The notes under the pieces: generated by a model
What the model was told of the DNA's origin: nothing
Databases searched by the model: none
The model's input: the letters and a program-made list of their open reading frames with translations, nothing else
Shown here: positions 7,145-60,400 of the stretch, in pieces
Position numbering within the stretch: position 1 is the stretch's first letter
Layout of the letters: each line of letters opens with the position of its first letter
Source: a virus
Taxonomy: Duplodnaviria; Caudoviricetes
IMG/VR virus record: IMGVR_UViG_2894625894_000003
Coordinates: 1 to 64,000 of that record
Reading direction: 5' to 3' (one strand)
Length of the DNA stretch: 64,000 nucleotides
Program-made: the position numbers and the translations under genes

Positions 7145-7375
7145 ATGAAAAAGTACCTGTTTATCCTGATCTGTTTTTTGATTACCGCCTGTGATTCAGG
7201 AAAGATCGATGCTCCTTCTACCTACGAAAAAGACCGGAATGGTGCGGTGTACAAAGTAAAAGAAATTGACAGGTGTGAATACATCGAGGTACAGTTCGGA
7301 TCTTTTGAGGACCGCGTATACAGCCTTACCCATAAGGGTAATTGTAAAAACCCGATTCATCGGATGCACCAGTAG
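7145..7375 (+). CDS. putative lipoprotein
   Basis: MKKYLFILICFLITAC: basic N-terminus, hydrophobic core, lipobox Cys. Confidence 0.75.
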   Translation: MKKYLFILICFLITACDSGKIDAPSTYEKDRNGAVYKVKEIDRCEYIEVQFGSFEDRVYSLTHKGNCKNPIHRMHQ

Positions 7376-43381: not shown

Positions 43382-44530
43382 TCAGGAACCGGTCAACCGA
43401 AACGAACGGGTTTCGAGAAAACCGATAAGTAGCTCTGCAATGGCCTGCTGGCCTGCAACGTTCCAGTGAACCCGGTTACCGGAAGTCGACGAGTCTGTTG
43501 TGGTGAAATACGTATCGCCTACATTGGAAAAAGCTGATCCCAGATTGAGGTACATTACTTTTGAAGGCTGATTAAACTGAGCAACAACCTGGGCATCAAT
43601 GGCCCGGATATAACCTGCCAGGGTTTCACCCGATGAACCGGCTGAACGAGGACCAGGTCCCAGGATAATCAAGGGGGCCTCATACTGTTTTAGCCAGTCA
43701 TTGATAAATCTATTCAGATTTACACGGTAGGCAGCCGTATCCGAATCATTGGTTCCTAATGCCCATAGGCCCAGGGAGGGATCTTTGATCCCTTGTAACC
43801 GTCCTCCTCCCCTGATCTTGTCAAATAAGACAGAGCTTTGTCCAGCAGCGGATTTGTCGACCAGGTGGATTGGTTGATTTTTACCTTTAAAGTAAGCCTT
43901 GAGTCGCCAAGTCCAAACTTCCCATCGAGAGGTAATGCCGGCTACGGATGTACCCTCCGTATTAGAATCGCCATAGATATACAGATGGTAGGGAGCTTCA
44001 TAGTCATTGTCAGCACTGGCCGTATAACCATGAACACCAAAACCCAAAGCACCTCGCCGGGTTGTATCCGTCTTGCCCTGCAGTCGAAGGGAAATGGCAC
44101 CATCTCCGCCATAAATGACGGCATTGGCTGGGTAGCTATTGCTGCCTGTATAGAGTTGAAGATCTCCCGAGTTGGGACGGCCCATACTCACCCGGGCGAA
44201 TACGGGGATGGTTGTTCCTAACGTGTAGTGGTCGATATACCACTTTTTGGTAATGGGTGGATTGAAACCACCTACGGTAACCGGACTACCAAACGTACCG
44301 AACGATAAGGTGGATGAATTGGCGACAGTTGTGGTAGTAGAAGCCGGAAAACCTGTGGGATAGGTAAGACCTGCCGTCTCCAGGTCCAGTCCTTCGATAC
44401 GTATCCGTTCAGCTTCGGTATAGTTGACGGTTCGAACGGTATTCAGTAAGGTAGTGGGAAAACCGCTTGACTGGCCCTTCGACAAAAGGGGAAGGATCAG
44501 CAGCAGACAAAGGGAAAGGTATTTGAACAT
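43382..44530 (-). CDS. SGNH/GDSL hydrolase with Sec signal peptide
   Basis: YGDSNT, AAG, LGTND, VHWNVAG; N-terminus MFKYLSLCLLLILPLLSKG|Q. Confidence 0.85.
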   Translation of the reverse strand: MFKYLSLCLLLILPLLSKGQSSGFPTTLLNTVRTVNYTEAERIRIEGLDLETAGLTYPTGFPASTTTTVANSSTLSFGTFGSPVTVGGFNPPITKKWYIDHYTLGTTIPVFARVSMGRPNSGDLQLYTGSNSYPANAVIYGGDGAISLRLQGKTDTTRRGALGFGVHGYTASADNDYEAPYHLYIYGDSNTEGTSVAGITSRWEVWTWRLKAYFKGKNQPIHLVDKSAAGQSSVLFDKIRGGGRLQGIKDPSLGLWALGTNDSDTAAYRVNLNRFINDWLKQYEAPLIILGPGPRSAGSSGETLAGYIRAIDAQVVAQFNQPSKVMYLNLGSAFSNVGDTYFTTTDSSTSGNRVHWNVAGQQAIAELLIGFLETRSFRLTGS

Positions 44531-44543
44531 GAGCTACCGGTTG

Positions 44544-44813
44544 TTAACCGTTTGGATTAAATAAGCCAGCCAGGTCTCGTAGCTGAGCATCAAGTTGGGA
44601 TGGATCAATGGTATTACCGTTTTCATCCACCAGGGTATCCTTAATAATGCCGGATTTCTGCCCAGAGAGTAGTAGGGAGTCCGCCAGATAAACAACAGGA
44701 CGGAATACGGCGGCCAGGTCCATAATTGTCTGGAGCTGACTACCCGAAATGGTAAACTGATCCTCTTTGTTCCAGGTAGAGGTACGATGAATGGTGGTGG
44801 GCTGTTGGGCCAT
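44544..44813 (-). CDS. hypothetical protein
   Basis: ATG at 44813 (MAQQPTT...). Confidence 0.7.
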   Translation of the reverse strand: MAQQPTTIHRTSTWNKEDQFTISGSQLQTIMDLAAVFRPVVYLADSLLLSGQKSGIIKDTLVDENGNTIDPSQLDAQLRDLAGLFNPNG

Positions 44814-44815
44814 AA

Positions 44816-44879
44816 AGCAGGTTTTTAGTATACAATCGGTCGTAACAAGTAGAACCCAAAAATACACCAAAAACCTGCT
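44816..44879 (-). promoter_or_regulatory. 18-bp RNA stem abutting a start codon
   Basis: AGCAGGTTTTTGGTGTAT/GTATACTAAAAACCTGCT, fully paired with three G-U pairs on the - strand only. Confidence 0.6.
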
Positions 44880-44904
44880 GACCCCAGTACCCGAAAGTCG
44901 GTAC

Positions 44905-45096
44905 CTATTCCACCTTAATACATCCCGGAAAAACAGTACAGTTGGCTAGACGACGGATTTTGTTTCGAACAGCCCCGTCTTCCAGGAAAACGGCTACTTC
45001 GGGAATGGCCAGTACATTAGCCTGTTTGATGATAATATCAGCCAGCTGATCCTTGGTCAGGGCTGTTAACTGGCTACGTTGGGTGTAGATCTGCAT
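44905..45096 (-). CDS. small hypothetical protein
   Basis: ORF packing. Confidence 0.6.
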   Translation of the reverse strand: MQIYTQRSQLTALTKDQLADIIIKQANVLAIPEVAVFLEDGAVRNKIRRLANCTVFPGCIKVE

Positions 45097-45107
45097 GGGT
45101 GTGTGGA

Positions 45108-45611
45108 TTAGGCTTCAGTTTCGCCAGGAGTCTCATCCGGCTCTGGTGTTGGGGCAACGTAACCCCCATATTTATTTCGGCTTACGGACCGGTTCATTTC
45201 CCGCAGCAGGAATGATCGGATGATTTCCCACAGTGTCGTATTATCGGAGATAACCATTCCCATGTCCCGAAGTTTACCCAGCGTCAGGCTTTGGAACCAG
45301 GCTTTCTGGGAGATGGCATCAGGAGTCCCTTCTTCAACAAGATCCCCCACCTCATTGACGAACGATTCCTGAGTTGTGGTTAATACAACAATGGGCTGAG
45401 AACTGGCCAGGTAGGCCTGACGAGTGGCCGAGTCATAGTTCAGGTTTTGGGCGGCAGCCTGATACGTTTCCCCGGTTTGCAGTAAAGGGTGGCATTCGGT
45501 TCGCTGGATCAACTCGCCATACCGATTGATCATAAAATAGTCGTTGATGACTATACGGTCCTGGGCAGATCCAGGAAGCGTAGGGGCAGGTATACTGATT
45601 AACTCGCTCAT
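45108..45611 (-). CDS. hypothetical protein, possible fibre chaperone
   Basis: ATG at 45611 directly after the collagen-like gene. Confidence 0.65.
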   Translation of the reverse strand: MSELISIPAPTLPGSAQDRIVINDYFMINRYGELIQRTECHPLLQTGETYQAAAQNLNYDSATRQAYLASSQPIVVLTTTQESFVNEVGDLVEEGTPDAISQKAWFQSLTLGKLRDMGMVISDNTTLWEIIRSFLLREMNRSVSRNKYGGYVAPTPEPDETPGETEA

Positions 45612-45613
45612 AA

Positions 45614-46531
45614 TTATGTGAAGGAAATGTACGATAAGGTGCCGGCATCGTTCCAATACAATCGCCTCCAGCCGGCACTTGTGTTTTTGACTAACCGAAA
45701 GGTCCCATTGACAATATCAGTAGCCGTGGGATCCTGGGTTATAACTAGGGGGCTAACGGGCACCCAGCTGCCGCTTACATAAAACAACATGTCCCCCGGG
45801 TTCCCAACTGGTAAATTGCTCTCGCCTTTTTCGCCTACAGCCACTACGGTCGATCCTGGAGCTATGGTATTACCCGCCCCCATACCAATAGAGCTGGTTC
45901 GTTGCAGATAAACCGTTTGTGTACCCAGTTTACCGGCAACCTTGTAGTAGCCGCCGGGGGATCCAGTGGCCACATTGAAGATGTAGAGGTTCATTCCCTG
46001 AGCAACCCAAACATTTGTTGCCAAAGAAACGGTAGCCAAGGCACCCATCACGGCTGGCTGGGTAAAGGCGGCTGCTAGGGTTGAATACGCCCCAATACCC
46101 GTAGCTCCTGTATCTCCCTTTGGACCCGGCACCAGGCTGGCATCACCCTTTGGAATACCCAAGCTAAGTACCTGATTGGGTGGGGTACCCGTTACTTCAG
46201 CCGTTGCCTGAGCCCCCGGAGCCAGGGTAGAAACTGTTCCAATAGTTAATTTAGCCGGAGGTCCAGCAGGACCTGGTTCACCAGGAATGCTTTCCCCTGC
46301 CGGCCCTTGTGGACCAGTAGGCCCTTCTGGTCCCTGTATACTGTTTAGGTAATCAGAAAAGCTGGCCCCTGGGTTGTGTTCGACATACTGTTCATAAGCA
46401 GTCTTTCCTGGAAGCCCCTGGGGGCCTCTGGAACCTACCTGATTAGTTTGTTGACGGGCTTCCAGTGTGGCAACCCGCTGACTTAACTGGGTAACAAGTC
46501 CAGCTAGTGAGTCTTCAGTGATGTTTGCCAT
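45614..46531 (-). CDS. collagen-like fibre protein
   Basis: GPQGLPG, GPEGPTGPQGPAG and GPKGDTGATG repeats; LTIGTVSTL..GIPKG. Confidence 0.85.
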   Translation of the reverse strand: MANITEDSLAGLVTQLSQRVATLEARQQTNQVGSRGPQGLPGKTAYEQYVEHNPGASFSDYLNSIQGPEGPTGPQGPAGESIPGEPGPAGPPAKLTIGTVSTLAPGAQATAEVTGTPPNQVLSLGIPKGDASLVPGPKGDTGATGIGAYSTLAAAFTQPAVMGALATVSLATNVWVAQGMNLYIFNVATGSPGGYYKVAGKLGTQTVYLQRTSSIGMGAGNTIAPGSTVVAVGEKGESNLPVGNPGDMLFYVSGSWVPVSPLVITQDPTATDIVNGTFRLVKNTSAGWRRLYWNDAGTLSYISFT

Positions 46532-46941
46532 TATCGTTTAAGTTGGCCCATTCGGGCGTAAGGCCCCCGGCCAAAAATGCGGACAGCCAGGTAGCGAAGG
46601 TGGTTATCGACCCAGCTTCGGGGCAAGGGTCGGAGGTGTTTCATCAGGAGTAAAAATTCCCGGTCCGCGTCTGCCCGGCTTAGCAGATGGGAAGCGTACA
46701 GATAATCATGGACTACATCCGCTAAAATGTGGTCCCCAACCGGAGGAAAGATCCACCAGAGAAGTTTTGGCACTGAGGCAAAGTCGGTACAAAACCCAGC
46801 TGGTATAGTCAGAGTTAACCCTGTTGATAAAGTAATTACTAGGGATTCTACTAGCCAGAAACATTGCCGACTCTGCCCTTGACGATCCTCAGTATACGTT
46901 GGATATTGGACGGCTACATAACGGGGTAAGATTGGGGTCAT
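46531..46941 (-). CDS. DUF1353 protein
   Basis: IPAGFCTDFASVP, VHDYLY, AD..F, YLAVRIFG. Confidence 0.85.
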   Translation of the reverse strand: MTPILPRYVAVQYPTYTEDRQGQSRQCFWLVESLVITLSTGLTLTIPAGFCTDFASVPKLLWWIFPPVGDHILADVVHDYLYASHLLSRADADREFLLLMKHLRPLPRSWVDNHLRYLAVRIFGRGPYARMGQLKR

Positions 46942-47219
46942 TATGTCCGGGCGACCAGAGGGGAAGCATAATAATTTTCCCCATCATAAAAGGTTAGGGA
47001 TTGACCAAAGTCTTCGTCTTCGGTCAGAATAAAAATGGCGGGTTGGCCTTCAATCACCATAGTACGGGCACTGGTCAGAGTGGTTGTTACGGATACAGTC
47101 GGCCTGGTTTCTTCCAGGCCCAACACCTTTTTGAGGAGTTCAATAATTAGCCGATATAAACCATCCGGGGATTTATCGACCTGTCCGGGTCGGAGCAACA
47201 GGCAAGCAGGGGTGTTCAT
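46941..47219 (-). CDS. small virion-module protein
   Basis: ATG at 47219; KVLGLE motif; C-half resembles 51087-51317. Confidence 0.6.
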   Translation of the reverse strand: MNTPACLLLRPGQVDKSPDGLYRLIIELLKKVLGLEETRPTVSVTTTLTSARTMVIEGQPAIFILTEDEDFGQSLTFYDGENYYASPLVART

Positions 47220-47279
47220 AGACGCAGTGGGTAAGCCGAACAATCCAACATAAGTTATAGGAAGAGTTGTCCGAAAGAC

Positions 47280-47852
47280 TTATTCATTACCGGTTGTTGG
47301 GGTTTGTTCGGATTCCGGGATGGTTTCTTCTTCAGGAACAGAAGGTTCCGAAGGCTCACCGTCCCCTGGATCTTCATCGAATGGTTCATCCAATGGATCG
47401 GTTTCTTCTGCCAGTTCCTCTACAGGCTCCTCGGGCTGGGGTTGCGGCTCTGGTGTCGGTTCAGGCTCAGATTCTGGTTCGACTACCGCAACAATAGGCG
47501 GCTTAAACTCCGGCATGGTGCCCCCGTTAGCCACAATGACATCTGCTAGAACATCCGGTTCAAGCTGCATGATCAGACCAGCTACGGCGTACATCGTTTC
47601 TGGTTTCAATGTTCGTTTGGGGAGCCAGTCCACGAACGGGGTAATGATTTCTCCCGTGGCCAGGAATCGGTAGTTGGATCGAACAACGGCCTGACCCGTA
47701 TACGTTCGGCTTATAACACGCTGATTGGTGTCGGCTTCAACGACAATGTCAACGATTTCATCATCGAGCAATTGTTGAATCTGTTCAGGGGACAGGAATT
47801 TCCAGTTAGCACGGAGCATTTCCACCGTGTCCAGTACTAGGGTTGGAGACAT
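47280..47852 (-). CDS. hypothetical protein with Glu/Pro-rich tail
   Basis: EPE low-complexity C-terminus. Confidence 0.75.
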   Translation of the reverse strand: MSPTLVLDTVEMLRANWKFLSPEQIQQLLDDEIVDIVVEADTNQRVISRTYTGQAVVRSNYRFLATGEIITPFVDWLPKRTLKPETMYAVAGLIMQLEPDVLADVIVANGGTMPEFKPPIVAVVEPESEPEPTPEPQPQPEEPVEELAEETDPLDEPFDEDPGDGEPSEPSVPEEETIPESEQTPTTGNE

Positions 47853-47896
47853 TATGGTAATTGGTTAAAGGGAGAGGTTACCGACCAGATCGGCAG

Positions 47897-49168
47897 TTAT
47901 TGAGTGAGTGATTGAAGAAGAGAGTTACTGACTTGACGGGGATAATAAACGACCTTTCGAATCCAGGCACAGAGATTGTTTGTTCCGTTCGGGTTTGACC
48001 CTAAGGAAATCTGGGTAACTGAACCGATACTTGTTGCACTAGTATTGGGTGTTAAGCCTTCTCGCGTAAGCACACGATTTGAAGACGAATAACTCATTCC
48101 GTGCCGAACGGTGCCTGTACTCGTAACCCCTTGCTTAGTAAAAGAAGCCGTCCCATTGTAACTTTCAGTATCCTGTTGACCTGTTGATCGGATCCCTAAG
48201 AAGTTGTTCGCACCATCATAGCCAATAATTCTGGCCGTAACTCTTTGGCCAAGCACCGTTTCAGCAATCCAGGTACCCTGCGAGGGATTAAACCAATTGA
48301 GGTTATTTAATAGGCATAAATCACCTGATCTTGTAACCGAACTCGCTGCTGTGGGGATGTACGAGGTTACGAATGCGCCTGATTCGAGTTGAGCACCAAA
48401 TAAATATAGCCCTTCACCGCCTGACAGATTTGTCGGTGCCTCTTCACCACTTGTACCCACAAGGCAAACTCCTGTCACATTTGTGCCTGTAGCTTCTGTT
48501 ATGGTTCTGGTTGCCCATATTCTATACCACCCGTTACCAACAGACTGATAACCGTAAGACTGGTAAGAAGATAGGTTTGAGCCACCCCAAGTAAGGGTAG
48601 TCAAATTGAACATGGCGTGAGTCCCTGTACTTGCAACCCTAAGGCCGACATAATCGTAGTTATACCGTTTTACGAATGCAGAAACGGTATAGGTTGCACC
48701 ATTTGTTAGGGTTAGAGACTGTCGAACAAAACAGTGTAGCTTACTGGTATTAGTAGTAAACAAAGCGGCATTAGTTGTGCCTGTAGGAGATACTTCGACA
48801 TTATCCGTAACAACTGCAACACCACCCCCTTTTGTCCAGGTCCCATTCGCGAAGTTTTCACTGCGCAGAAACAGATTCGTCCTCGACTCCTCAATCAAAA
48901 TCCCCCTCGCCTGCAACGTAACAGGATCGTAATCAAATCGAGGCTGGTTAGCCGCTACAGTTTCGATTAACCCTGTTGAATTAGTTCGAGTACCGATACT
49001 GTTTCGAGTAAATGTCAATCGAGAATCTAATGTCTCCGTATTGGTGAACGACAAATTCAGACTCGGAGTAAACTGGCTGATTGTACCTGACAGCTGGGCC
49101 GAACAGGTACCTATATACGTCATCAGGATAAACATCCAGACGACGAGTTTTTTCAGGAAATGCTTCAT
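47897..49168 (-). CDS. head-spike/fibre-like protein with lectin-like C-domain and Sec signal peptide
   Basis: TFTRNS, NQPRFDYDP, GILIEESRTNL, GNGWYR, GAQLE..TSYIPT; N-terminus MKHFLKKLVVWMFILMTYIGTCSA|Q. Confidence 0.8.
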   Translation of the reverse strand: MKHFLKKLVVWMFILMTYIGTCSAQLSGTISQFTPSLNLSFTNTETLDSRLTFTRNSIGTRTNSTGLIETVAANQPRFDYDPVTLQARGILIEESRTNLFLRSENFANGTWTKGGGVAVVTDNVEVSPTGTTNAALFTTNTSKLHCFVRQSLTLTNGATYTVSAFVKRYNYDYVGLRVASTGTHAMFNLTTLTWGGSNLSSYQSYGYQSVGNGWYRIWATRTITEATGTNVTGVCLVGTSGEEAPTNLSGGEGLYLFGAQLESGAFVTSYIPTAASSVTRSGDLCLLNNLNWFNPSQGTWIAETVLGQRVTARIIGYDGANNFLGIRSTGQQDTESYNGTASFTKQGVTSTGTVRHGMSYSSSNRVLTREGLTPNTSATSIGSVTQISLGSNPNGTNNLCAWIRKVVYYPRQVSNSLLQSLTQ

Positions 49169-51084
49169 TATTGTTTCGAGTAGAATCCGTCGAGTTCGGT
49201 AGTCGAGCTGGCCACAATGTCGAACACAGTGACACCATCTACAGCGGTGTTGAGATCAACAGTAGCACCGCCAGGGAATCGGATGGCTGCCGGCAGGGTG
49301 AGTGTATAGCCTCCGGCTCCTCCCTGCTTGACGCGGAGGTATAGGTGTTTACCAGCTGTGTAGTTCGTCAGGGTAATCGTCGTGTTACCGGTGATTGTAA
49401 TGTAGTGGTACACGTTGTCCGAGAGGGACATGTCGATCGTGTACGTAGTAGCAACAGAGGTGTTTGTTGTTGTTAGGTTTGAACCACGTACTCCACCAAG
49501 AAATGAACCACCCCCGTAACTCTTCAGAAATATAGGAGTAGTACTGTTACCCAAAAACAGCGTATTATTCTGTGTTCCCGTTTCTCCATTACCGGCATCT
49601 ACACCAAGAAATATATTATTACTTCCAGTAAATCCAGCAGCAACATTTCGACCTGCATTATACCCTAAGAACGTGTTATTGCTTAAAGTTGCATAGATAG
49701 AATTAAATCCTGCTGATCTACCTACTGCTGTATTATTGGCACCAGTACTTACTTGTTGAAGTGCTGATTCTCCAATAACTGTATTAAATGCTCCTGTTGT
49801 TAGTGCTGTACTGGCACTACTACCTACAATAGTGTTTCCAGCCCCGGTTAATGTTATATTTCCATTGCCACCTAGAAATAAGTTATTAGTGCCCGGAGTT
49901 TTAGCTAAATCAACACCTCCTAATGTATATTTCCCTGTTACATCGATGCCAGAAGATGTAGCAATTAAAACATTGGTTCCTGCTTGTTGTAAGCGAACAC
50001 CAGATGCAGCACCGTTTATAGTAACTAATCCATTCCCTCCATTTGCATTAATTGCAAAGTCACCTCCTGTTGATGCTGCACTTGCATAGCCGATAGTACC
50101 TTGATAGGAGCCGTCATTCCCACGTGCAAAATTTATTTGTCCGGCATTATTCGTACTACCGAAATAATGGTTTCGAGTTGTTAGGCTTAGTGAACCGGGA
50201 CCGCCAATTATGCCATTGGTGTACGTATTGCCTGTAAATTCTGCAATGTTCGTACTAGATACCTGAGTAGTAGAACCGAATGTCCAGCCGCCGTTTTCCT
50301 GCATTTTTGAGAATGCATTAACGGCGTTGTTTCTGAATAAAATGCCGCTACTACCAGTTCTGGCACTTAATACCTCAGTAAATACAGTGCCTATTCTTGC
50401 ACCACCAAATGCCTTTCCTGATATACCGACATTCCCACCTCCATCAGTTGGTGGATAAACATCGTTGCCGACCTGAATAGGCTGATTAAACGTAACAGCT
50501 CCCGTACTGATGAAGTTAACAACACCTGCATCGGTGATAGCCATGTAACCCGTGTTGCCGAAATTTCTGAATGCTGTTGTTAGACCTGTTTTCCCTCGGA
50601 ATATTTGGGAATAAATCTGGTTATCAACCGTTAGGTCCCGACTGAAAAAAGCATCCCGCCAGCGAGTAGTTAAGTTACCGAAGTCGTAGCCATTGTCAAC
50701 ACCTGGGAACAACGAGTTAGCTACCGTGAAATTACCCGTATTAGCCGCTAGATAAATCCCATTGGTGGCCCCGTGTCGAAACACAATACTCCTGTTACCA
50801 CCAGCCTGTATCGTAATACCAGCCTGAGCTGATGTCTGATCATTGATGACTAGCTGGGTAGCACTACCCCCCATGGCGGCTGTCGTTGCCGTTCCGAGAT
50901 TCAAGCCACCTACAACGGTGAGGCTGTTGAACTGCCCTGTCGATCCGGCTACAACCAGTGTCTTCCAGGCTGTTGCTACATTAGGACGGTATTCTAGCTT
51001 TCCGTTATTTTCCCGAAACCCTACCTGGCTAAATCCAGGCAGACCGGTTAACAACAGGGCCAGTAATACAAGATACTTTTTCAT
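49168..51084 (-). CDS. Gly/Asn/Thr-rich tail-fibre/adhesin-like protein with Sec signal peptide
   Basis: YDFGNLTTRW fibre motif, NTxxG beta-roll repeats, KQGGAGGYTLT C-domain; N-terminus MKKYLVLLALLLTGLPGFS|Q. Confidence 0.8.
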   Translation of the reverse strand: MKKYLVLLALLLTGLPGFSQVGFRENNGKLEYRPNVATAWKTLVVAGSTGQFNSLTVVGGLNLGTATTAAMGGSATQLVINDQTSAQAGITIQAGGNRSIVFRHGATNGIYLAANTGNFTVANSLFPGVDNGYDFGNLTTRWRDAFFSRDLTVDNQIYSQIFRGKTGLTTAFRNFGNTGYMAITDAGVVNFISTGAVTFNQPIQVGNDVYPPTDGGGNVGISGKAFGGARIGTVFTEVLSARTGSSGILFRNNAVNAFSKMQENGGWTFGSTTQVSSTNIAEFTGNTYTNGIIGGPGSLSLTTRNHYFGSTNNAGQINFARGNDGSYQGTIGYASAASTGGDFAINANGGNGLVTINGAASGVRLQQAGTNVLIATSSGIDVTGKYTLGGVDLAKTPGTNNLFLGGNGNITLTGAGNTIVGSSASTALTTGAFNTVIGESALQQVSTGANNTAVGRSAGFNSIYATLSNNTFLGYNAGRNVAAGFTGSNNIFLGVDAGNGETGTQNNTLFLGNSTTPIFLKSYGGGSFLGGVRGSNLTTTNTSVATTYTIDMSLSDNVYHYITITGNTTITLTNYTAGKHLYLRVKQGGAGGYTLTLPAAIRFPGGATVDLNTAVDGVTVFDIVASSTTELDGFYSKQ

Positions 51085-51086
51085 AG

Positions 51087-51317
51087 TTAAATGTTGGATA
51101 GATCGAGTACCAGTGGTTTAAGGCTGGTTGGTGTTTTCTGGTAGGTAGTATCCGTTTCCAGGATATAAACCAGGGTAGCTCGGGTGACCGTCAAGTCAGT
51201 GGCATCCTGGAGCGTGGTCACCGTGATCAGACCGGATCCACCTGACTGGTTTTGTTCCAGCTGGTTTATTCGGGCCTGTGCACAGCGTAGCATGTTGGTA
51301 AGCTGTGTGGTAGTCAT
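51087..51317 (-). CDS. small virion-module protein
   Basis: RINQLE motif followed by an SGGSG linker. Confidence 0.65.
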   Translation of the reverse strand: MTTTQLTNMLRCAQARINQLEQNQSGGSGLITVTTLQDATDLTVTRATLVYILETDTTYQKTPTSLKPLVLDLSNI

Positions 51318-51328
51318 GTAAGGAAGGG

Positions 51329-52039
51329 TTAACCCAAACGGGCAATTCGGCCCCGTACGGCAAAAGAACCCGCCGGAGGGGTGATAACATCACTAGCGGG
51401 GGTATAATCGAGAGCTTTAAGAAAATCGGCTACAAAGCGGTGTCCCACCTGATTGATATGGAGCCCTTCCGCTGACATCTGATTGAGGTTGGGGGCCAGC
51501 TGCATGGCGTGGTAAACATCGGCCAGCACACAGTGCTGTTGCCTGGCAACATCAATAGCAGCCTGTACGTAGGCATCCGCTATTTCCCGGGTGGGTGCCT
51601 GGGTAACCCCACACTCCCCGACTGAAAATCCCAAATTCGGAAACCAGTAGCCCGTATGAATGACAATGTCTTCCGCCTGCCACCCCTTTTCTATACAGCC
51701 CAGTACAGCACGGTTTAAGGTCAATTTAAAATTGGTGGGGTTAAGCAGGTTCGTAATATTGATTAACAGGTCATTGGTTCCGTAGGCTAAAAAGAGTCGG
51801 CCATGAGCCGAAGTTTTTTCAGGCACCAGTTCAACGTCAAACCAGGCCCGATTACACCCCAGGGTGGAAACTGTAGACTGCAAACATGCCCCACCCACAC
51901 CCTGGTTATCTTCGATGCCGTTTCGTTCCGCACATAACAAGCTACTCCACCGATTGGCGTAGCCACCGGCCAGATACCCCTCCGTCATGGAATCTCCAAA
52001 AAAGACGGCTATCTTACCTTCAAAGTCAAGTGCTATCAT
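51329..52039 (-). CDS. SGNH/GDSL hydrolase without signal peptide
   Basis: FGDSMT, GVGG, YGTND, GLHINQVGH. Confidence 0.9.
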   Translation of the reverse strand: MIALDFEGKIAVFFGDSMTEGYLAGGYANRWSSLLCAERNGIEDNQGVGGACLQSTVSTLGCNRAWFDVELVPEKTSAHGRLFLAYGTNDLLINITNLLNPTNFKLTLNRAVLGCIEKGWQAEDIVIHTGYWFPNLGFSVGECGVTQAPTREIADAYVQAAIDVARQQHCVLADVYHAMQLAPNLNQMSAEGLHINQVGHRFVADFLKALDYTPASDVITPPAGSFAVRGRIARLG

Positions 52040-52773
52040 GGGTAAAGGGTCAATTTAGGAGCATACACTTTCCCCGAGTTGTTCATCGACAGCATCAAAT
52101 ACACGTTACCAATCATGGGTGTCAGGGTAAGTATATCGATCCAGGTGATGTTGTCATTAGACTCCTGGAGTTTAACTGCCCCATCAGCTTCCCGGATGAT
52201 ACCCACATAGGTAACTACCGTGTTTTTGACGGTTGTCTGTACGTTGTTTTCCCATCGAAGTATCCGCTGATTACCCTGGAAGTACGATAGTTGAATGGAA
52301 TCCACAAAGTCAGTATGATTACCAGTGCCGGTGGTACTCAAGCCCAGGATAAAATCAGAATCAGTATTATCGGCTCTCATCCATACCCGACCTTTCTTGC
52401 CATCAGGTATAACCTGTTGAGCGGGAGCCGCCGTGTGGTAGGTTGGCCCCGACTGATACGTAATGGTAGTAGCTGTTTCCGTATAAGCATTACCAAACGT
52501 CAAAGGAGTTGACGTAGGAATGGTTGGCCCCGAGCCACCCCCTCCGCCCCCAATGACACTTAGGGGATTCGCTGCCGTTCCGACACCAGCAAAGTGTTCC
52601 TCGTTAAAGTAGATGGCTGCCTCCTGGAGTTTCTGATCGACAAAACTTTCCAGACTACCTCCCGATGGTATTGATCCCGTACCGGATTCCAGGGCGGCTA
52701 CACGGGCAGCTAATCGACACAGATCGCGGTGCATGGCGGGTATATCATAAAACGACGGTCGACGGAGATTCAT
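52036..52773 (-). CDS. fibre-like protein with beta-rich C-domain (start 52773 or 52833)
   Basis: RVAALE, GVGTAANPL, poly-Gly linker. Confidence 0.7.
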   Translation of the reverse strand: MNLRRPSFYDIPAMHRDLCRLAARVAALESGTGSIPSGGSLESFVDQKLQEAAIYFNEEHFAGVGTAANPLSVIGGGGGGSGPTIPTSTPLTFGNAYTETATTITYQSGPTYHTAAPAQQVIPDGKKGRVWMRADNTDSDFILGLSTTGTGNHTDFVDSIQLSYFQGNQRILRWENNVQTTVKNTVVTYVGIIREADGAVKLQESNDNITWIDILTLTPMIGNVYLMLSMNNSGKVYAPKLTLYP

Positions 52774-52877
52774 AAAATGATTGGGTGGAGAGAAAGCAAT
52801 TACCAAATTTGGTAAAAACACCTTCTCATCCACCCTATTTTAGAAAAACCCAAACTGGGAATATAGCCGTTTCAACC

Positions 52878-55800: not shown

Positions 55801-57434
55801 TGGCCCGATACGTGAGGAACCAGAATAGAGTGAGTCATGGCCTGGTGCTTGTCCCGGATTTCGGAGGCCGACAGCCCCTGACTCTCCCAGCCCAGCTCGT
55901 CGCGGACAGCCGAGAGTTTTTGGGCAATTTCTACTGTTTCTCCGTGAGCCTGATAGACCGCATCGGATACAATACTGGCTACACCAGCCAGCACCGGATC
56001 GTGGGACTTAACGGCCGCATCGACCCAGGTTTTAACGAAGTCCTCATCCCGGTCGGCATTCCTGAGCAAATCCTTCAGTTTCTTCTTGTCGAGCAGGAAG
56101 GCTTCGTCGGGATGGGTTTCATTCGGGTGGTCTTTCTTCCAGGCCTCGATTGTCTTACGAATGTCGGTTTGCCGGCTTTCCAGCGTAGGCCATAACCAGT
56201 CTTCTACCAGCTGGTAGTGAATGTCAGTCAATTGGTCCCGCAGCACTCCGTACTTAGCGACAGCCGAATCCAGGATGGTATCAATGGTTCGAATCCGGTA
56301 GGTATCAAAGAGTTTCTTGAGGTCTTCGGTAAACTGCTGCCCGTCAGCTACCGTTAGATCCGAAGAGTCGGTACCAAATCGTTCCTGAATTAACCGGAAC
56401 AGGGCCTCTTCCGAGACAGCCGGCGACGAGAGTAATTCATTGATGGAAGCGACCGATGAAGACAGGAGTTTCCCTTCCAGTAAATCCGTTAGGGCATCCC
56501 GGAATTCTGGTCCCAGATTCAGTGTCGAGCGGGCAGACGGCTTGTAGCCCGCTGCTGCCATCTCCTGGCGGAGTTGCACAATCCCGTTAAACAGGTACAG
56601 GTAATGCTTGGACTTGCCAATCTGACGGGCTAGTTGTTTGAGCTCATCTACTTTCTCGGAGGCCTCAAGATCCGTGTTAGCCTGTAAGGCTTTAAATCGG
56701 GCCAGTACCCCTTTTTGAGGGTCAAAGAAATTCTGGTCGATCTTATCCAGCCAGTTGGTAGTCTCCACCACGTACTTGGACAGCGATTCAGCCATTGCCT
56801 CCGTCGTATTATCAGTAAGCTGGGCCACCTGGGCAAAGAGCCGGTTGCTGGTTAGCCGCTTGTCAGGAGACTCAATAGCCCGCTGGGCAATATTCTGGGC
56901 GTAGGTCTGTAGGGTAGATTTGAGTCGGGTGAATTTATCCTTGAACCAGTCAGCATGTTCACCGACATATTCAGTCCATTCGTCCTGAATCGACTGTTGG
57001 TGATCGGCATTGATCTGATCCGTCAGTAGTGTCTGCAGGTCACGGTCCGAGAGGTCCGCTACAGGGGCGGGCTCGTTGACCTGAATTTGATCGGCTGGAC
57101 TAGCCAGCGGCCGGACATCGACGGCTAATGCCCAGATGGGATTCCCCTGAGCGTCGGTTCGGGGAATGATCCGCAGGATGTCGTCGAGTACGCCGTGCTC
57201 AGCCTGCAGCCGCTGGTTGATCGTCTGGATGAGGGGCTGCTGGCGGGTAAACAAACCCGAAGTGGGATGGCCTACCCGCAGGAATCCCTCTCGCACCGGA
57301 AATAGCGGGGAGGTCGTATCCTGGGGATCGACGGCAGCCCGTATTTCCCGGGCTGTGTCGTTGTGGAGTTGACGGAGCCGGCTTAGTTCCGGCCCCGTAT
57401 AGTGGTTGTCTAAGTAGGGTATTTTACAGGACAT
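52878..57434 (-). CDS. giant virion cargo/ejection-like protein
   Basis: 1518 aa, helical, directly downstream of the virion RNAP; HGHYN, MMFKKY and EGYF motifs; C-terminal hydrophobic helix. Confidence 0.7.
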   Translation of the reverse strand: MSCKIPYLDNHYTGPELSRLRQLHNDTAREIRAAVDPQDTTSPLFPVREGFLRVGHPTSGLFTRQQPLIQTINQRLQAEHGVLDDILRIIPRTDAQGNPIWALAVDVRPLASPADQIQVNEPAPVADLSDRDLQTLLTDQINADHQQSIQDEWTEYVGEHADWFKDKFTRLKSTLQTYAQNIAQRAIESPDKRLTSNRLFAQVAQLTDNTTEAMAESLSKYVVETTNWLDKIDQNFFDPQKGVLARFKALQANTDLEASEKVDELKQLARQIGKSKHYLYLFNGIVQLRQEMAAAGYKPSARSTLNLGPEFRDALTDLLEGKLLSSSVASINELLSSPAVSEEALFRLIQERFGTDSSDLTVADGQQFTEDLKKLFDTYRIRTIDTILDSAVAKYGVLRDQLTDIHYQLVEDWLWPTLESRQTDIRKTIEAWKKDHPNETHPDEAFLLDKKKLKDLLRNADRDEDFVKTWVDAAVKSHDPVLAGVASIVSDAVYQAHGETVEIAQKLSAVRDELGWESQGLSASEIRDKHQAMTHSILVPHVSGQEADEAWIEAGNPVIPVTVFGETRQLKAHRKKAFLTEFDTAKWEAHQTAFYNQLPGRVSALWDIVMPQEDGVPDDRALFNFLLSRQGNPAYDAIRTRLFDNFRKGQKTTEPVLKDWAWSKDKPYLLRRNIKNTLIGQFYGEHQETVTGTERLQKLHENGVLDRQGRPTQPTTEHLSNYLRNNTSYQRIREDQDVAKLFASWKDKKNADWVDNLAGYHDGANRYLLVQKQVGESRQWEWVNLSSATAHQNVVGYAYWGGDMQRLRKDQYHVEAGGFAGLSKQAWQNLRQDEPMLGYYQKLYAAWDGAGYKLGGVGLKHGILPQVAAIETSATQLAKSRWDGFWDWLRGVLKLDYWQNLQLNQPDQATGRPAVEQYLNNDPVRRIPVRHVQFIDEDKLEMDLFRSVMAYRMGANQYRSMRQLEPQVQLLRTLVAGDSLLGINARTATQYNPEGLPARGRKLLEGLDNRLKTQGPRLNQKLLEFIDDVVYGEETHEAFLNMPGFGNLDLNKAAQGMMGYASFTSLAWNVTSMFGNVGMGLFSNWSEAISGRYSTAADAKAAMGDYWTAMRNGDFFKDLREPSLNKKSKLGQLTLYFDAIQGEAIDEFGELSRIGNAQKMQDRALYWTQSGAEHLIQTQSMVQLMRGYKLPSGKSLWEAVEHQPGEVVSWSSEVSDEILRDFQRRLHSVNKELHGHYNKLDKGMLQRRWLGKMAMMFKKYLYSSFRSRFSRRRFDWESGDVTEGYFRQYLAQLYKEVYDQKGIAQLAWYGLKNVALRPTAGALDALSGRRLSKNLEGFDQFVYGDATGDLRSAMYRTTFELAVFGMMGLLAAGLHALNEDDDDEDRSVVLLNLELFARRMADDVGMYLPWYIVPGHLGPVFTWDKALQIVKSPLAQIRSYDATVGLLGQLVGVEYGEEGINFTFNDQYNRSGPGYQQGDYKLENKLYKSIFAPFWQVMKLLNPEQQLQYLQMVFKNSR

Positions 57435-60400
57435 CAGGCAGGGGTTGAGCAGTCATTGATCTGCTGGTCAGTATCCGAGAGGGGTGGCTGGGGGGCCATC
57501 TCAGCTTTCTGGCTGAGGGCGGTGACGGTTTGCCGGTTTCTTGACAGAGCGACGTATTTGAGAGCGTTCTGTTCGTTGAGGTAGGGCTGGCCTTTGGATT
57601 GGATAACCCGGTCGGCCTGGGTATTCTCCAGGTTGTCGTAGTCCACAAAGGTATGACTATAGGTAGACCCTTGTGATTTGTGTACCGTAACTGCGTAACC
57701 GTAATCGATATTTTTCTCAAAAACGGCCTTCTGGGGTTCCCGTTCGAAAGGCATCATGCCCGTGGCATCCTTTTCGAAGAGTTCAGGGTGCTGTTTACGA
57801 AGCATACCCATCGTCGTCATCTGCCCTCGGAAACTAACCAGATCCTGGGGCATCTGGTAGGTCGAGAAGAAATCATCGAAATCCTTACTGGCCGCCTGCC
57901 GGAACTTCCAGGGAACGGACCGGTTGTCGACAAAGGACTTCCAGGCCACCAGCTGGCGAAACAGAGGTATGTTGTCGGGATCCTCCGGGTTGAGTATTGT
58001 CACCCGGCTGGGTTTGAGCAAGTCATCCTCCCCCAGCTCCCGCATCAGGGCCTGATCCTCGGGCGTAAACAGGGGCTGCAAGCTGACCTTATAGCCTGAC
58101 AAAGACACTTTAGGAGCCGGTTGGCCGTCGATCAGAAACGGAATCCGGATTTCTTTCTGGATGTATTCCGATTCAAGAATCTGGTAGTCCATACCATTCT
58201 GGACTTCAGGGTTTTCGCCAGACTGGTTGTAGCCCATCAGAATGTCCCCTACTGCATACTCACCCGTCTTACCCTGCACAGTCCGAATCAACCGGTTATA
58301 AGCGGCTACCGAGGAATTGGTATAGCTGAGCACTTTGGCAAAAAGAGGGTCCGTCTGGTAGCTGGTCGAGGTAAAGGCCCGCTCCAGAGCCTGCTGGAAG
58401 GCATTCCGGTTTTTGGTAAAATACACCCCGTCTCCATTGCTGGCCTTTTGGGTGTACATCGGATACTTCTCGGCCCGGTTCAATAGGTTCTGCCGGATAG
58501 TCGTCAAAATACCAAGCTGAGGGTTTTCTGAGGAAATCCGTTTAACCTCCGTCAGCTCAACCCCGTCCTGGGGACCCGTAAACTGTAGGGCATCCGAGAG
58601 GGTTGTCTGCCCTACGGGAGGGAGCTGAGCCGGATCCCCCATGAAGATAATGCTGGAGCCTTTCTGGCGGGCCAGCATCATCAGGTCGTCGTAGTCCGAA
58701 CGGGCAATCATGGACGATTCATCCATAATCAGAATACCATTCTGGGGCATCTTGTTATTCATGCCCAATACCCACTGACCGTCTTCCTTGCGTTTATTGA
58801 GAATCTTGGCCATCGTAAACGATTCGGCCCGAATACCACCCCGCAGCATGGACAACTTGAGAATCAACCGGGCTTTGTGGGTAGGGGCTCCCAGCATGAT
58901 CGGTTTAAAGCCGGATTTCTTATTCTGCCGGAAGTACTGAACAATAAACTTGGAGATTGTCGACTTACCTGTACCGGCATACCCCCGTAAAACGAACTGG
59001 GTTTGTCCCGCCTTGATCGCATCGACAGCCGCCTGGAGGGCAGCTCCCTGCTGGGATCCCAGTTCAAAGCCTGTCTCGATTACCGTTCCATCGGTAAAGG
59101 TGAACACCGGTCCCGAGGGTGTTTTAGCGGAAGCCGTTTCGGTTTCGGGCTGACCGGCCGTTTGTGGATTCTGCCCATTATTTTCATTATAGGCATCTAC
59201 AACTTTCTGAACCCGGGCTTTAAACTTGGTATGGGTCTCCCCCGCTCCCTGGTTCAGTAATGCATCAAAGGCCCGGTTGTTTTCGTCGAGGAGTACGTCC
59301 ACTTTCTGACCATAGTAGTTGTAGGTGACCGTAGTGGTTTTAGGTTCGTCCATTTTAGGAGCTTCCACTACTGGTACTTCCTTCGGCTCAACCGGTTTCC
59401 CAACCGTGTTAGCCGTCTTGGTCAGTACGTCCCGAATGGCCTGACGACCCGACTCCTTGAGATCCCGTGAGCCTATACCCGCAAAGTTTTTGGTCAGTGT
59501 GGGGGTAACTGTCGGCTCCCAGGTCCGGGTGGCAGGGTTCCAGGTATTCCAGTTCCCCGCCGTCTGGTCAAACACATATACCGGTTTTTTATCCAGTATG
59601 GCCCCGTAGATAGCATAGATCGTACCTCGGTCCAGCGGGACATTAGTACGACCCGCCCGGGTACCAAAGCCTTTCGAGATGGCAAAGACAGCGTCCGAAT
59701 AATACACCTGGCCATAATTTCGATACCGGTAGTGACCGTAACCCCGGTCGACATTTTCCCCAAAGAACTTGTCGATGGTATCAGCTACCTCTTTCCCCCG
59801 GGCATAGATAGCTTCATCCAGTGGGGTAGCCTTCCGACCTTTGTTACGTAGGGTCATTGAATCGACCGATCCCTGTCCAGGCTCCCGGTAGTGAATCGAC
59901 TTTATACCCAGTCGTTCTCCTTCCAGATCCCAGGCCTCATCAGCCCCCTGAGCCCCACCACTGTGGTTGACAAAGTCTGTTAATACCGCATCCACAGTAG
60001 GAACCGGAGTTGTGGGGACCTCCACCAGATCTGTTCCTAACACACTCCGGTAATAGTTACGGATGGGCTCCCCACCTGGTGACTGAATCCAGTGTCGAAG
60101 TAGCTTTCGGGACTCTTCCATCGGCTGGGGATCCGTAGTGACTGGACTCACGGCCCGTACTCCCAGTGGAACACTCTGCAGATAAACCGCCCGGTACCCT
60201 TTTGCTAGTTCACTACCAGCTGCATCGGCTTTTTGCTGACTGCCAGCCGTATCGTAGTAGCGGAATAGCTCGTATACCCGATCTCTATAGGTAATGGTTC
60301 GGGGGAAAGCGACACCCTCCACATCACCCCGCAGACCCAGGCTGTTGATCAATGGTACTTTCTGGTTTTCGTTTTCGGCCGCTATCAGGGGGTTCATGTC

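What the first reader, a model, noticed from the sequence alone, without database searches (positions are those of the whole stretch)
43382..51084. Three virion-module fibre/esterase proteins carry Sec signal peptides followed by Gln: possible export route for phage appendage proteins
Seen: the SGNH hydrolase (43382-44530), the head-spike-like protein (47897-49168) and the Gly-rich fibre (49168-51084) each start with Lys, a hydrophobic core and a small-residue cleavage site followed by Gln (SKG|Q, CSA|Q, GFS|Q). Neighbouring fibre genes and the second SGNH gene lack such leaders. Known: Gln at +1 after SPase I cleavage, converted to pyroglutamate, is typical of Bacteroidota secreted proteins, whereas tailed-phage virion parts normally assemble in the cytoplasm. 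Inference: these late proteins go to the periplasm or cell surface. They could join virions at or after lysis, be kept away from assembly, act as receptor decoys, or remodel the capsule for superinfection exclusion or release.
Basis: partly seen in the sequence, partly recalled or inferred. Interest (0 to 1): 0.82.

Follow-up and report, generated by a model that had tools for sequence, protein, structure and literature searches.

The report
Phage tail-fibre proteins carrying export signals
A large prophage in a soil-type Bacteroidota genome puts genuine-looking secretion signals on a sugar-binding fibre pair and an esterase inside its tail-fibre gene block. Related prophages keep these signals on both fibre partners together. 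This suggests that these phages send some appendage proteins through the cell's export route, which I could not find described for tailed phages.

Summary
Three late-operon proteins start with K/R, a 12-15-residue hydrophobic core and a small -3/-1 site before Gln: SGNH esterase 43382-44530, lectin-like "head spike fibre" 47897-49168, and fibre 49168-51084. Their neighbours do not. My crude scan finds this pattern at 17% of the host's long ORFs and at 0.13% of internal-Met controls. A fourth case, a 1580-aa enzyme-like protein, lies outside the window.

The leaders are conserved. Homologues in Spirosoma, Fibrella and metagenomic prophages at 31-69% identity keep them. The module [fibre with a conserved C-domain]-[lectin]-[small leaderless protein] recurs at tail-module ends of five other loci. 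In every locus the first two proteins either both have a leader (5 loci) or both lack one (1, Fibrivirga). The leader is a clean addition in front of an N-terminus that matches leaderless virion fibres. Lipoprotein paralogues sit in host polysaccharide loci.

Export is well supported but inferred. Where the proteins end up is open: free glycan-directed factors released at lysis, docking onto particles at lysis, or an envelope role in the lysogen.

This scan had already noted Sec leaders on tail-locus proteins in another phage genome. P. gingivalis phage ORFs obeying the Q-rule are published. I call this a new variant of a known kind, with interest of about 0.65.

The parts
43382..44530 (-). 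SGNH382: Sec-leader-bearing SGNH/GDSL esterase. Residues 20-~180 form an unknown N-domain; residues 186-367 are the SGNH domain.
   Evidence: PF13472 E 7.8e-8, 33.4 bits against a cut-off of 32.9. phrog_15881 'tail protein' matches its C-part 347-552/554. GDS, GxND and His blocks were read in the sequence. Homologues P0242 and P0243 keep leader+Q.
44474..44530 (-). Leader of SGNH382 (residues 1-19, ...LLSKG|Q)
47897..49168 (-). p423: leader-bearing 'head spike fibre' lectin-like protein with two ConA/LamG-type jelly rolls
   Evidence: NF048003 GTA_spike_fiber 144.5 bits against a cut-off of 36. A profile hit to PDB 6tb9 Rcc01080, E 2.5e-74. AF2 model with pLDDT 87. Foldseek matches to Pa193/E217 baseplate proteins and to CBM/LamG folds. 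phrog_5939 positions 341-762/801.
49097..49168 (-). Leader of p423 (residues 1-24, ...GTCSA|Q)
49168..51084 (-). p638: leader-bearing Gly/Asn-rich fibre. It has an N-module after the leader, a poorly modelled shaft with YadA/MAT-like repeats, and a conserved C-domain.
51028..51084 (-). Leader of p638 (residues 1-19, ...LPGFS|Q)
49171..49482 (-). p638 C-terminal beta-sandwich domain (residues ~535-638). A fibre carrying this domain lies immediately upstream of a p423 homologue in all six loci examined.
   Evidence: pLDDT 95-98. It is 44-59% identical to the C-ends of L007 573 aa, L008 590 aa, L020 471 aa, L136 590 aa and L128 286 aa. Weak fold matches to Pa223 capsid spike (Z 8.3), KP1 baseplate (Z 8.2) and CBA120 TSP4-N residues 78-180 (Z 7.2).
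47280..47852 (-). p190: leaderless small protein that follows the p423 homologue in every cassette. It has an acidic Pro/Glu tail here.
   Evidence: 30-53% identity to L007 143 aa, L008 129 aa, L020 132 aa, L128 124 aa and L136 159 aa. No family or fold was found.
51087..51317 (-). p76: unlisted 76-aa ORF filling the apparent gap upstream of p638. It carries the R[VI]xxLE coiled-coil motif (RINQLE) shared with the leaderless fibre proteins p265 (RVAALE) and p305 (RVATLE).
   Evidence: Read from the sequence and from the translations.
51329..52039 (-). SGNH236: second SGNH esterase, leaderless, start overlapping the end of p265
   Evidence: PF13472 E 1.1e-14. No leader.
52036..52833 (-). p265: leaderless fibre-region protein with a coiled-coil anchor motif
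45614..46531 (-). p305: leaderless collagen-like tail-fibre protein
   Evidence: Many tail-fibre PHROGs. No leader.

Best explanation
The three proteins, and a fourth 1580-aa enzyme-like protein further along the prophage, are real late phage gene products made with cleavable Sec signal peptides.

Proposed route:
1. They are translocated unfolded across the inner membrane.
2. Signal peptidase I cuts them just before Gln.
3. The host glutaminyl cyclase caps them as pyroglutamate.
4. They fold in the periplasm, apart from the particle, which is built in the cytoplasm.
5. They have no T9SS tag, so they stay in the periplasm until holin/endolysin lysis releases them together with the virions.

p638 and p423 most likely form one two-part, polysaccharide-binding fibre. 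In this reading the lectin is held by its short N-terminal peptide on the conserved C-domain of the fibre. SGNH382 and the 1580-aa protein are glycan esterase/depolymerase-type enzymes.

My preferred reading is that they work as free, extracellularly stable factors that bind or modify the host's surface polysaccharide. That would strip or mask receptors on debris and on neighbouring cells. They would not be obligatory parts of the particle.

Shown here: the leader features, their conservation and concordance, the homologies and the gene contexts. Inferred: export, cleavage, pyroGlu capping, the p638-p423 complex and the function.
For: Leaders and starts.

Statistics: 17.4% of host N-termini against 0.13% of controls. 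Q at +1 in 42% of host leaders. The host has a glutaminyl cyclase.

Conservation:
- SGNH382 homologues P0242 (69% identity) and P0243 (56%) keep leader+Q.
- p423 homologues P0002, P0008 and P0027 (36-54%) keep it, and P0003-5 carry lipoboxes.
- The seven leader-bearing members form one clade, SH-aLRT 81.

The cassette recurs at tail-module ends in L007, L008, L020, L136 and L128. Leader state is concordant: fibre and lectin both have a leader in 5 loci and both lack one in 1.

Glycan theme:
- The RcGTA head-spike-fibre homologue binds capsule.
- p423 has ConA/CBM-like folds.
- There are SGNH domains.
- Host lipoprotein paralogues lie at the ends of glycosyltransferase clusters.

Support for 'accessory, not core':
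- The phage has leaderless fibre proteins with a shared coiled-coil anchor.
- p638/p423 form a low-GC island: GC 0.45, GC3 0.37-0.41, against 0.49-0.55 in neighbours.
- An SGNH382 paralogue sits as an insert between the major-tail and chaperone/TMP genes of a second prophage.

No T9SS CTD was found. A published analysis shows that Q-rule capping stabilises extracytoplasmic proteins (PMC10653852, abstract).
Against: - No experimental or transcript data.
- SignalP was not run.
- The mature N-terminus of p423 (QLSGTISQFTPSL...) matches, residue for residue in length, the start of leaderless homologues (MSLSNNFPTTRPSL...). In RcGTA residues 2-10 are the virion anchor. The p638-type N-module also exists leaderless. 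So both proteins look fully equipped to sit on a particle.
- The Fibrivirga cassette is leaderless at the same position, so the module can work without export.
- A periplasmic lectin could be trapped by nascent polysaccharide.
- p190 is always leaderless and unexplained.
Confidence: 0.4

Rival explanations
1. Lysis-gated arming. The export and processing are the same as in the best explanation, but p638/p423, and perhaps the esterases, are true virion appendages. Particles would be built fibre-less in the cytoplasm. They would receive the periplasm-matured fibres when the holin breaches the inner membrane and the two compartments mix. Docking could use the conserved p638 N-module, on a leaderless stub such as p76 or another tail protein.
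For: - The leader is a clean N-terminal addition to proteins whose leaderless relatives are virion fibres.
- The cassette occupies the classical distal-fibre slot, just before the lysis genes, in L007, L008 and L020.
- A leaderless orthologous cassette exists in Fibrivirga.
- The p638 C-domain weakly resembles gp10/TSP4-type docking domains.
- p76 with a fibre-anchor motif sits directly upstream.
- An earlier follow-up in this scan reached the same reading for another phage.
Against: - I found no precedent for tailed phages in the papers searched.
- Lipoprotein members of the same clade (P0003-5, L107, possibly L020 426 aa) cannot easily be virion parts.
- Each phage also has conventional leaderless fibres, so the pair is not needed as the sole receptor binder.
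- Dilution at lysis would make assembly inefficient.
- crAss001 fibres gp21-26 have no leaders.
Confidence: 0.3
2. Lysogenic conversion or superinfection exclusion. The cassette would be expressed, also or mainly, in the lysogen. The exported lectin/fibre and esterase would stay in the envelope and bind or de-acetylate nascent surface polysaccharide. That would change the receptor for related phages or change adhesion, as the host's own lipoprotein paralogues in polysaccharide loci may do.
For: - Host lipoprotein paralogues nest inside the leader-bearing clade and sit beside glycosyltransferase, WecG and CpsB genes.
- The cassette is compositionally foreign.
- The SGNH paralogue looks like a moron insert.
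- P. gingivalis phage Q-rule ORFs were proposed to modify the outer membrane (PMC10367356).
Against: - The genes are packed without gaps into the long late operon, with overlapping or 2-13-nt junctions.
- The consensus promoter scan was at background, 17 found against 13.1 expected, and is not suited to Bacteroidota.
- No repressor-proximal location.
- No expression data.
Confidence: 0.15
3. The leaders are not used for export. They would be relics of genes captured from host secreted proteins, or hydrophobic N-terminal helices with another role such as membrane-associated assembly or removal by a phage protease. The proteins would then assemble in the cytoplasm like ordinary fibres.
For: - Host-encoded relatives exist.
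- p638's repeats resemble cellular leader-bearing tail-fibre-domain/MAT-like proteins, one with an almost identical leader end...ITGFSQVG.
- p423 has internal Met12/Met16 that could give a leaderless isoform.
Against: - The leader is retained across 31-69% identity in several prophage backbones, with -3/-1/+1 Gln preserved.
- Leader state is concordant between partners.
- Alternative starts are absent in SGNH382 and p638.
- Relics would decay quickly.
Confidence: 0.1

Closest known systems
RcGTA head spike fibre Rcc01080 (PDB 6TB9; NCBIfam NF048003 GTA_spike_fiber; Bardy et al. 2020, PMC7296036)
   Same: p423 matches the family model well above its cut-off and matches the PDB chain at E 2.5e-74. 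It is a flexible capsule/polysaccharide-binding appendage protein. A short N-terminal peptide precedes the conserved P-S-L-x-L-D-F block.
   Different: Rcc01080 has no leader, and its residues 2-10 anchor it to a pentameric base on the capsid. p423 has a 24-aa Sec leader in front, a second jelly-roll domain, and no base-protein homologue identified nearby.
Q-rule signal-peptide ORFs of Porphyromonas gingivalis prophages (Matrishin et al. 2023, PMC10367356)
   Same: Bacteroidota prophage genes whose predicted SPase I cleavage exposes Gln. The authors inferred use of the host's general secretion system.
   Different: Those five genes are of unknown function and were not described as tail-fibre or receptor-binding homologues. 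Here the leaders sit on identifiable fibre, lectin and esterase proteins inside the tail-fibre block, with concordance between partners.
Mosaic adhesive trimer (MAT) fibres of Bdellovibrio (Caulton et al. 2024, PMC10769870) and the cellular 'tail fiber domain-containing proteins' of Bacteroidota
   Same: Signal peptide followed by a phage-tail-fibre-like, repeat-rich shaft. p638's central repeats hit many such proteins.
   Different: MATs are chromosomal, carry a conserved ~130-aa N-domain and often an S74 chaperone. p638 has no PF13884 hit, lies in a phage late operon and ends in a different conserved domain.
Branched receptor-binding complexes on gp10-like adaptor domains (T4 gp10; CBA120 TSP4-N, PDB 7REJ/7RFV)
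   Same: The p638 C-domain gives its best fold matches to these and to other phage spike/baseplate beta-sandwiches. It always precedes a second binder.
   Different: The matches are weak (Z 7-8, Foldseek E >= 0.09). Known adaptors are N-terminal, leaderless and cytoplasmically assembled.
SGNH esterase tailspikes / tail proteins (phrog_15881; from memory, G7C gp63.1 type O-antigen deacetylases)
   Same: The SGNH382 C-part aligns to the C-terminal SGNH domain of a 554-aa phage tail protein family.
   Different: The ~350-aa virion-binding N-part of that family is replaced by a Sec leader plus an unrelated ~160-aa domain.
Exported phage accessory proteins known from other systems (from memory: T5 Llp and Cor-type exclusion lipoproteins; signal-peptide or SAR endolysins)
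   Same: Phage proteins that use host Sec/Lol routes to act in the envelope.
   Different: Those are small exclusion proteins or lysins, not homologues of virion fibres, and are not encoded as a fibre/lectin pair in the tail module.

Membership tests
Sec/SPase I signal peptide obeying the Bacteroidota Q-rule | Positively charged n-region, uncharged hydrophobic h-region of about 10-15 residues, small residues at -3/-1 | tested here: met
   All three proteins, and p1580, pass my heuristic. Neighbouring ORFs fail. SignalP was not available.
Sec/SPase I signal peptide obeying the Bacteroidota Q-rule | Gln at +1, and a host that follows the rule and has a glutaminyl cyclase | tested here: met
   SKG|Q, CSA|Q, GFS|Q. 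Q is at +1 in 42% of host leaders against 4.4% background. PF05096 hit at 280 bits.
Sec/SPase I signal peptide obeying the Bacteroidota Q-rule | Actual translocation, cleavage and pyroGlu formation | not testable with these tools
   Needs N-terminal proteomics or reporter fusions.
GTA/phage head spike fibre (NF048003) | Family HMM above the curated cut-off | tested here: met
   144.5 bits against a cut-off of 36, residues 91-281. PDB 6tb9 E 2.5e-74.
GTA/phage head spike fibre (NF048003) | N-terminal peptide that anchors the monomer to a virion base protein | tested here: inconclusive
   The mature N-terminus has the same length as in leaderless homologues. There is no Leu-Gly repeat as in Rcc01080, and no base-protein homologue was sought.
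SGNH/GDSL hydrolase (PF13472) | Family HMM above the gathering score | tested here: met
   33.4 bits against 32.9, which is borderline. The paralogue P0242 scores 28.8, below the cut-off.
SGNH/GDSL hydrolase (PF13472) | Catalytic blocks: GDS (Ser), Gly, GxND, DxxH | tested here: inconclusive
   Read: YGDSNTEG, AAGQSS, GTNDSD, NRVHWN. Ser, Asn and His are present, but the acid at -3 of His is Asn.
T9SS cargo (surface or secreted Bacteroidota proteins) | C-terminal sorting domain (PF18962/TIGR04183 or PF13585/TIGR04131) | tested here: not met
   No hit in Pfam or NCBIfam for SGNH382, p423, p638 or p1580.
MAT fibres / S74 tail-fibre-domain proteins | C-terminal Peptidase_S74 intramolecular chaperone | tested here: not met
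   No PF13884 hit in p638. Only the central repeats match such proteins.
gp10-like adaptor (docking) domain | Fold match of the small beta-sandwich to T4 gp10 / CBA120 TSP4 XD domains | tested here: inconclusive
   Z 7.2-8.3, rmsd 2.7-3.4 over 87-93 residues. Foldseek E 0.09-5.
Lipoprotein-type phage exclusion proteins (Llp/Cor-like) | Lipobox with Cys at +1 | tested here: not met
   The three window proteins have SPase I-type sites. Lipoboxes occur only in homologues P0003-5, L107 and possibly L020 426 aa.

The most novel reading that the evidence does not exclude
Lysis-gated arming of a tailed phage. Particles would be completed fibre-less in the cytoplasm. Their polysaccharide-binding fibre, p638 with the lectin p423 on its C-domain, would be exported by Sec, trimmed before Gln, pyroGlu-capped and folded in the periplasm. 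It would dock on the particle only when the holin opens the inner membrane. Virion assembly would then span two compartments, and infectivity would be switched on at release.
Probability: 0.3. Interest if true: 0.9.

Novelty: new variant of a known kind. Interest (0 to 1): 0.65.

Why it matters
Tailed-phage appendages are taken to be made and attached in the cytoplasm. Here, homologues of virion fibres and tailspike-type esterases carry host-adapted export signals that selection has kept. Both partners of a fibre/lectin pair gain or lose the signal together.

If the proteins are free factors, these phages export receptor-binding and receptor-modifying proteins ahead of lysis as a separate weapon. 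That bears on host-range prediction, plaque halos and debris avoidance. It also warns against calling every tail-module gene a virion protein.

If they dock at lysis, virion assembly would cross a membrane, which would be a new assembly principle.

The host lipoprotein paralogues in polysaccharide loci also show traffic of one lectin family between phage tails and the cell envelope.

The question can be tested directly by prophage induction, virion and periplasm proteomics, and leader fusions.

Tried and rejected
- Megablast and tblastn of the region, of p638, p1580 and the L018 1062-aa protein against 50,697 phage records found no match. Only p423 has relatives there, all distant and leaderless, for example Nonlabens phage P12024S.
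- Of 80 IMG/VR loci of the p423 family, only one carries a leader. It is the Spirosoma KUDC1026 prophage already seen.
- An order-level search of 301 genomes found only 3 with a match.
- The crAss001 fibre proteins gp21-26 have no leaders, so this is not a general crAss-like or Bacteroidota-phage trait.
- Sequence search of SGNH382 and p1580 against PDB found nothing.
- p190 has no Pfam, PHROG or NCBIfam family and no usable Atlas neighbour.
- The AF2 model of p638 is reliable only for the C-domain.
- The sigma-70 promoter and terminator scan was at background and is unsuited to Bacteroidota.
- The O-glycosylation motif D[ST][AILVMT] is absent from p423 and p638: 0 in 1061 residues where about 4 would be expected from neighbours. 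I take this as a curiosity, not evidence.
- Literature searches for Sec-exported tail fibres found no direct description. One of them was wasted on 'crass*' word matches.

Full report
**Setting.** The window is G000:C33:416622-480621 of a 7.5-Mb, 62-contig genome. The nearest relatives of the genes studied come from Spirosoma, Fibrella and Fibrivirga, in the Spirosomataceae of Cytophagales.

The window lies in a very large prophage-like block next to tRNA-Arg (L002:18370-18444). On the + strand this block carries DNA polymerase, helicases and rIIA/rIIB. On the - strand it carries a long late operon with ORFs of 890, 1993, 3594 and 1518 aa. The 3594-aa ORF runs across the window edge and ends in an SF1 helicase domain. 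Other first-stage readers called the element a temperate crAss-like phage. I did not re-derive that.

Downstream of the giants the - strand reads: p265, SGNH236, a 76-aa ORF, p638, p423, p190, p100, p136 (DUF1353), p305 (collagen-like fibre), p182, p108 and SGNH382. It ends at a convergent terminator region.

The three N-termini read MFKYLSLCLLLILPLLSKG|Q, MKHFLKKLVVWMFILMTYIGTCSA|Q and MKKYLVLLALLLTGLPGFS|Q.

The starts are not gene-calling artefacts:
- The p423 ATG overlaps the p638 stop.
- The p638 ATG follows the stop of the 76-aa ORF after 2 nt (CT, 51086-51085).
- The SGNH382 ATG follows the upstream stop by 13 nt.
- SGNH382 and p638 have no nearby alternative Met.

A simple leader scan of my own required net positive charge, a 9-18-residue uncharged core with mean Kyte-Doolittle hydropathy of at least 1.7, and small -3/-1 residues. 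In 43-53 kb it flags only these three ORFs.

Calibration on the host:
- 1150 of 3637 long ORFs are leader-like, and 42% of these have Gln at +1 against 4.4% Gln overall.
- 'Leader plus a site before Gln' occurs at 17.4% of true N-termini and at 0.13% of 22,377 internal-Met controls.
- The prophage has 4 such ORFs among 96 ORFs of at least 150 aa.

The fourth is a 1580-aa protein (L004:13215-17957, -; MNKRILLALLLLVSQLSPA|Q) with an SGNH-like GNSF...HWNDAGH stretch. Its residues 10-609 are homologous to leaderless 719/727-aa tail-module proteins of other prophages. The host encodes a glutaminyl cyclase.

The Q-rule itself is published (Bochtler 2018, cited; PMC10653852).

**What the proteins are.**
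- **p423** belongs to the 'head spike fibre' family. NF048003 scores 144.5 bits, and a profile hit to RcGTA Rcc01080, PDB 6tb9, has E 2.5e-74. The AF2 model (pLDDT 87) shows an N-terminal helix, which is the leader, and two ConA/LamG/CBM-like jelly rolls. In RcGTA this protein binds capsule. It is held on the capsid by its residues 2-10 only.
- **SGNH382** is a borderline-scoring but motif-bearing SGNH esterase. Its catalytic part aligns to the C-terminal domain of a 554-aa phage tail protein family.
- **p638** is modular. It has a short N-module after the leader and a Gly/Asn-rich shaft whose repeats match cellular and phage 'tail fiber domain' proteins. It ends in a ~100-residue C-terminal beta-sandwich modelled at pLDDT 95-98. 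The best fold matches of that domain, all weak, are phage spike and baseplate domains, including CBA120 TSP4-N and T4 gp10.

None of the four proteins has a T9SS C-terminal domain.

**The leaders are conserved, and they are additions.**

For SGNH382, both detectable homologues keep a leader ending before Gln. These are P0242, 69% identical, and P0243, 56% identical. P0242 is a paralogue in a second, siphovirus-like prophage of the same genome. There it is wedged between a major-tail-like gene and the chaperone/tape-measure genes.

For p423, most of 2,822 relatives are leaderless and begin a few residues before the conserved P-S-L-x-L-D-F block. The seven nearest carry either SPase I-type leaders (P0001, P0002, P0008, P0027) or lipoboxes (P0003-5). 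They form one clade in a maximum-likelihood tree of 53 same-length homologues (SH-aLRT 81; 98 with one leaderless sister). Longer and shorter homologues were left out.

The mature p423 start (QLSGTISQFTPSL) has the same length as the full start of leaderless members (MSLSNNFPTTRPSL). So the leader is a clean 24-residue prefix.

The same holds for the p638-type N-module (L-T-Y-R-Q-G-N-x-N). An exhaustive profile search finds it with leaders (P0245-7, P0250, P0252-3, P0256, P0260, P0264). It also finds it leaderless, starting right at the motif (P0263, P0270, P0273, P0276, P0277, P0280, P0285).

**A recurring cassette with concordant leaders.** A fibre ending in the p638-type C-domain lies immediately upstream of a p423 homologue, which is followed by a p190 homologue, in these loci:
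- this window;
- Spirosoma sp. KUDC1026 (L007);
- S. litoris (L008);
- a metagenomic prophage (L020);
- Fibrella forsythiae (L136);
- Fibrivirga algicola (L128).

In L007, L008 and L020 the cassette ends the tail module just before holin-like and endolysin genes.

In five loci both the fibre and the lectin have leaders. In Fibrivirga both are leaderless. The p190 homologue never has one. This is six loci from related hosts, so it is not a statistical test. Still, it is what is expected if the two proteins must meet in one compartment.

More tail-module proteins carry leaders in these phages: L007 1326 aa, L020 676 aa, L018 630 and 1062 aa, L136 669 aa, and L019 226 aa. Each phage also keeps leaderless fibres.

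By contrast, the lipoprotein members P0003 and P0005 sit at the ends of host glycosyltransferase/WecG/CpsB clusters, not in prophages. L107 is a third such host gene.

Leaders are absent from the family in 79 of 80 IMG/VR loci, from Nonlabens phage P12024S and from crAss001 gp21-26.

**Interpretation.** The evidence that the leaders are functional Sec/SPase I signals is indirect but convergent. It rests on host-specific cleavage-site grammar, retention over deep divergence, switching between SPase I and SPase II forms, and partner concordance. I put export at about 0.85.

What happens next is open. I slightly prefer free, periplasm-matured, lysis-released glycan-binding and glycan-modifying factors (0.4). 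My reasons:
- The enzymes lack any recognisable virion anchor.
- The p638/p423 pair is a low-GC insert.
- An SGNH paralogue looks like cargo in another prophage.
- The same clade includes envelope lipoproteins.
- The phage has conventional leaderless fibres sharing an R[VI]xxLE anchor motif (p265, p305, p76).

Docking on particles at lysis (0.3) is the most interesting rival, and some evidence favours it. Both proteins keep the N-terminal modules of virion fibres. A leaderless orthologous cassette exists. The C-domain is docking-domain-like.

An envelope role in the lysogen (0.15) and unused leaders (0.1) are less likely.

**Comparison with the known.** Exported phage proteins are known. Matrishin et al. 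2023 reported Q-rule leaders on five unknown ORFs of P. gingivalis prophages. Leader-bearing tail-fibre-like proteins of cells are also known (MAT fibres).

What I could not find described is Sec leaders on identifiable homologues of virion fibres and tailspike esterases inside the tail-fibre block of tailed phages, conserved and concordant between partners.

An earlier follow-up in this scan reported the same kind of thing in a 74-kb myovirus-type genome (e1-5344288). So the phenomenon has been seen before in this scan on other DNA. I did not check that report.

Noticed in passing
window 51087-51317 (-): A 76-aa ORF below the listing threshold fills the apparent 244-nt gap before p638. It carries the same R[VI]xxLE coiled-coil motif (RINQLE) as p265 and p305. 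It could be a fibre stub or adaptor.
   Followed up: partly
window 57434-64000 continuing to L005:55-10839 (-): The ORF cut by the window edge is a single 3594-aa protein with AAA_30/PIF1-type SF1 helicase motifs near its C-end (residues ~3053-3230). ORFs of 1993 and 890 aa precede it.
   Followed up: partly
window 7145-7375 (+): A 76-aa ORF in the early/replication region has a lipobox leader (MKKYLFILICFLITA|C). It is a candidate small envelope lipoprotein of the exclusion type.
   Followed up: no
L004:13215-17957 (-), about 33 kb beyond the window end: A 1580-aa leader+Gln protein with 10 Cys and an SGNH-like segment. Its N-part is homologous to leaderless 719/727-aa tail proteins of L007 and L020. 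It has no Pfam, PHROG, NCBIfam or PDB match.
   Followed up: partly
L009:9222-10622 (-) = G000:C2: A second prophage in the same genome carries a 466-aa leader-bearing SGNH paralogue (69% identity), inserted between a major-tail-like gene and the tail chaperone/1470-aa tape-measure genes. A 751-aa leader-bearing protein lies divergently beside its head genes.
   Followed up: partly
L015:10001-11278, L016:3721-4983, L107:3953-5194: Lipoprotein members of the head-spike-fibre family are encoded in host chromosomes. Two lie at the ends of glycosyltransferase/WecG/CpsB polysaccharide clusters. This suggests exchange of a lectin family between phage tails and envelope polysaccharide machinery.
   Followed up: partly
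L007:4297-8277 against L019:3-1667 and L019:1676-2356: The C-terminal ~215 residues of a 1326-aa leader-bearing F5/8-type-C protein exist in another phage contig as a separate 226-aa gene with its own leader+Gln. This is a split form in which the new piece acquired its own signal.
   Followed up: no
window 47897-51084: p638 and p423 together contain no D[ST][AILVMT] motif, the Bacteroidota O-glycosylation sequon known to me from memory. Neighbouring proteins have about 0.4 per 100 aa. The pair is also a low-GC3 island (0.37-0.41).
   Followed up: no
window 47280-47852 (-): The p190 family is always leaderless, always follows the lectin, and has no detectable family or fold. Here it carries a long acidic Pro/Glu tail that is absent from the shorter (124-159 aa) homologues.
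   Followed up: partly
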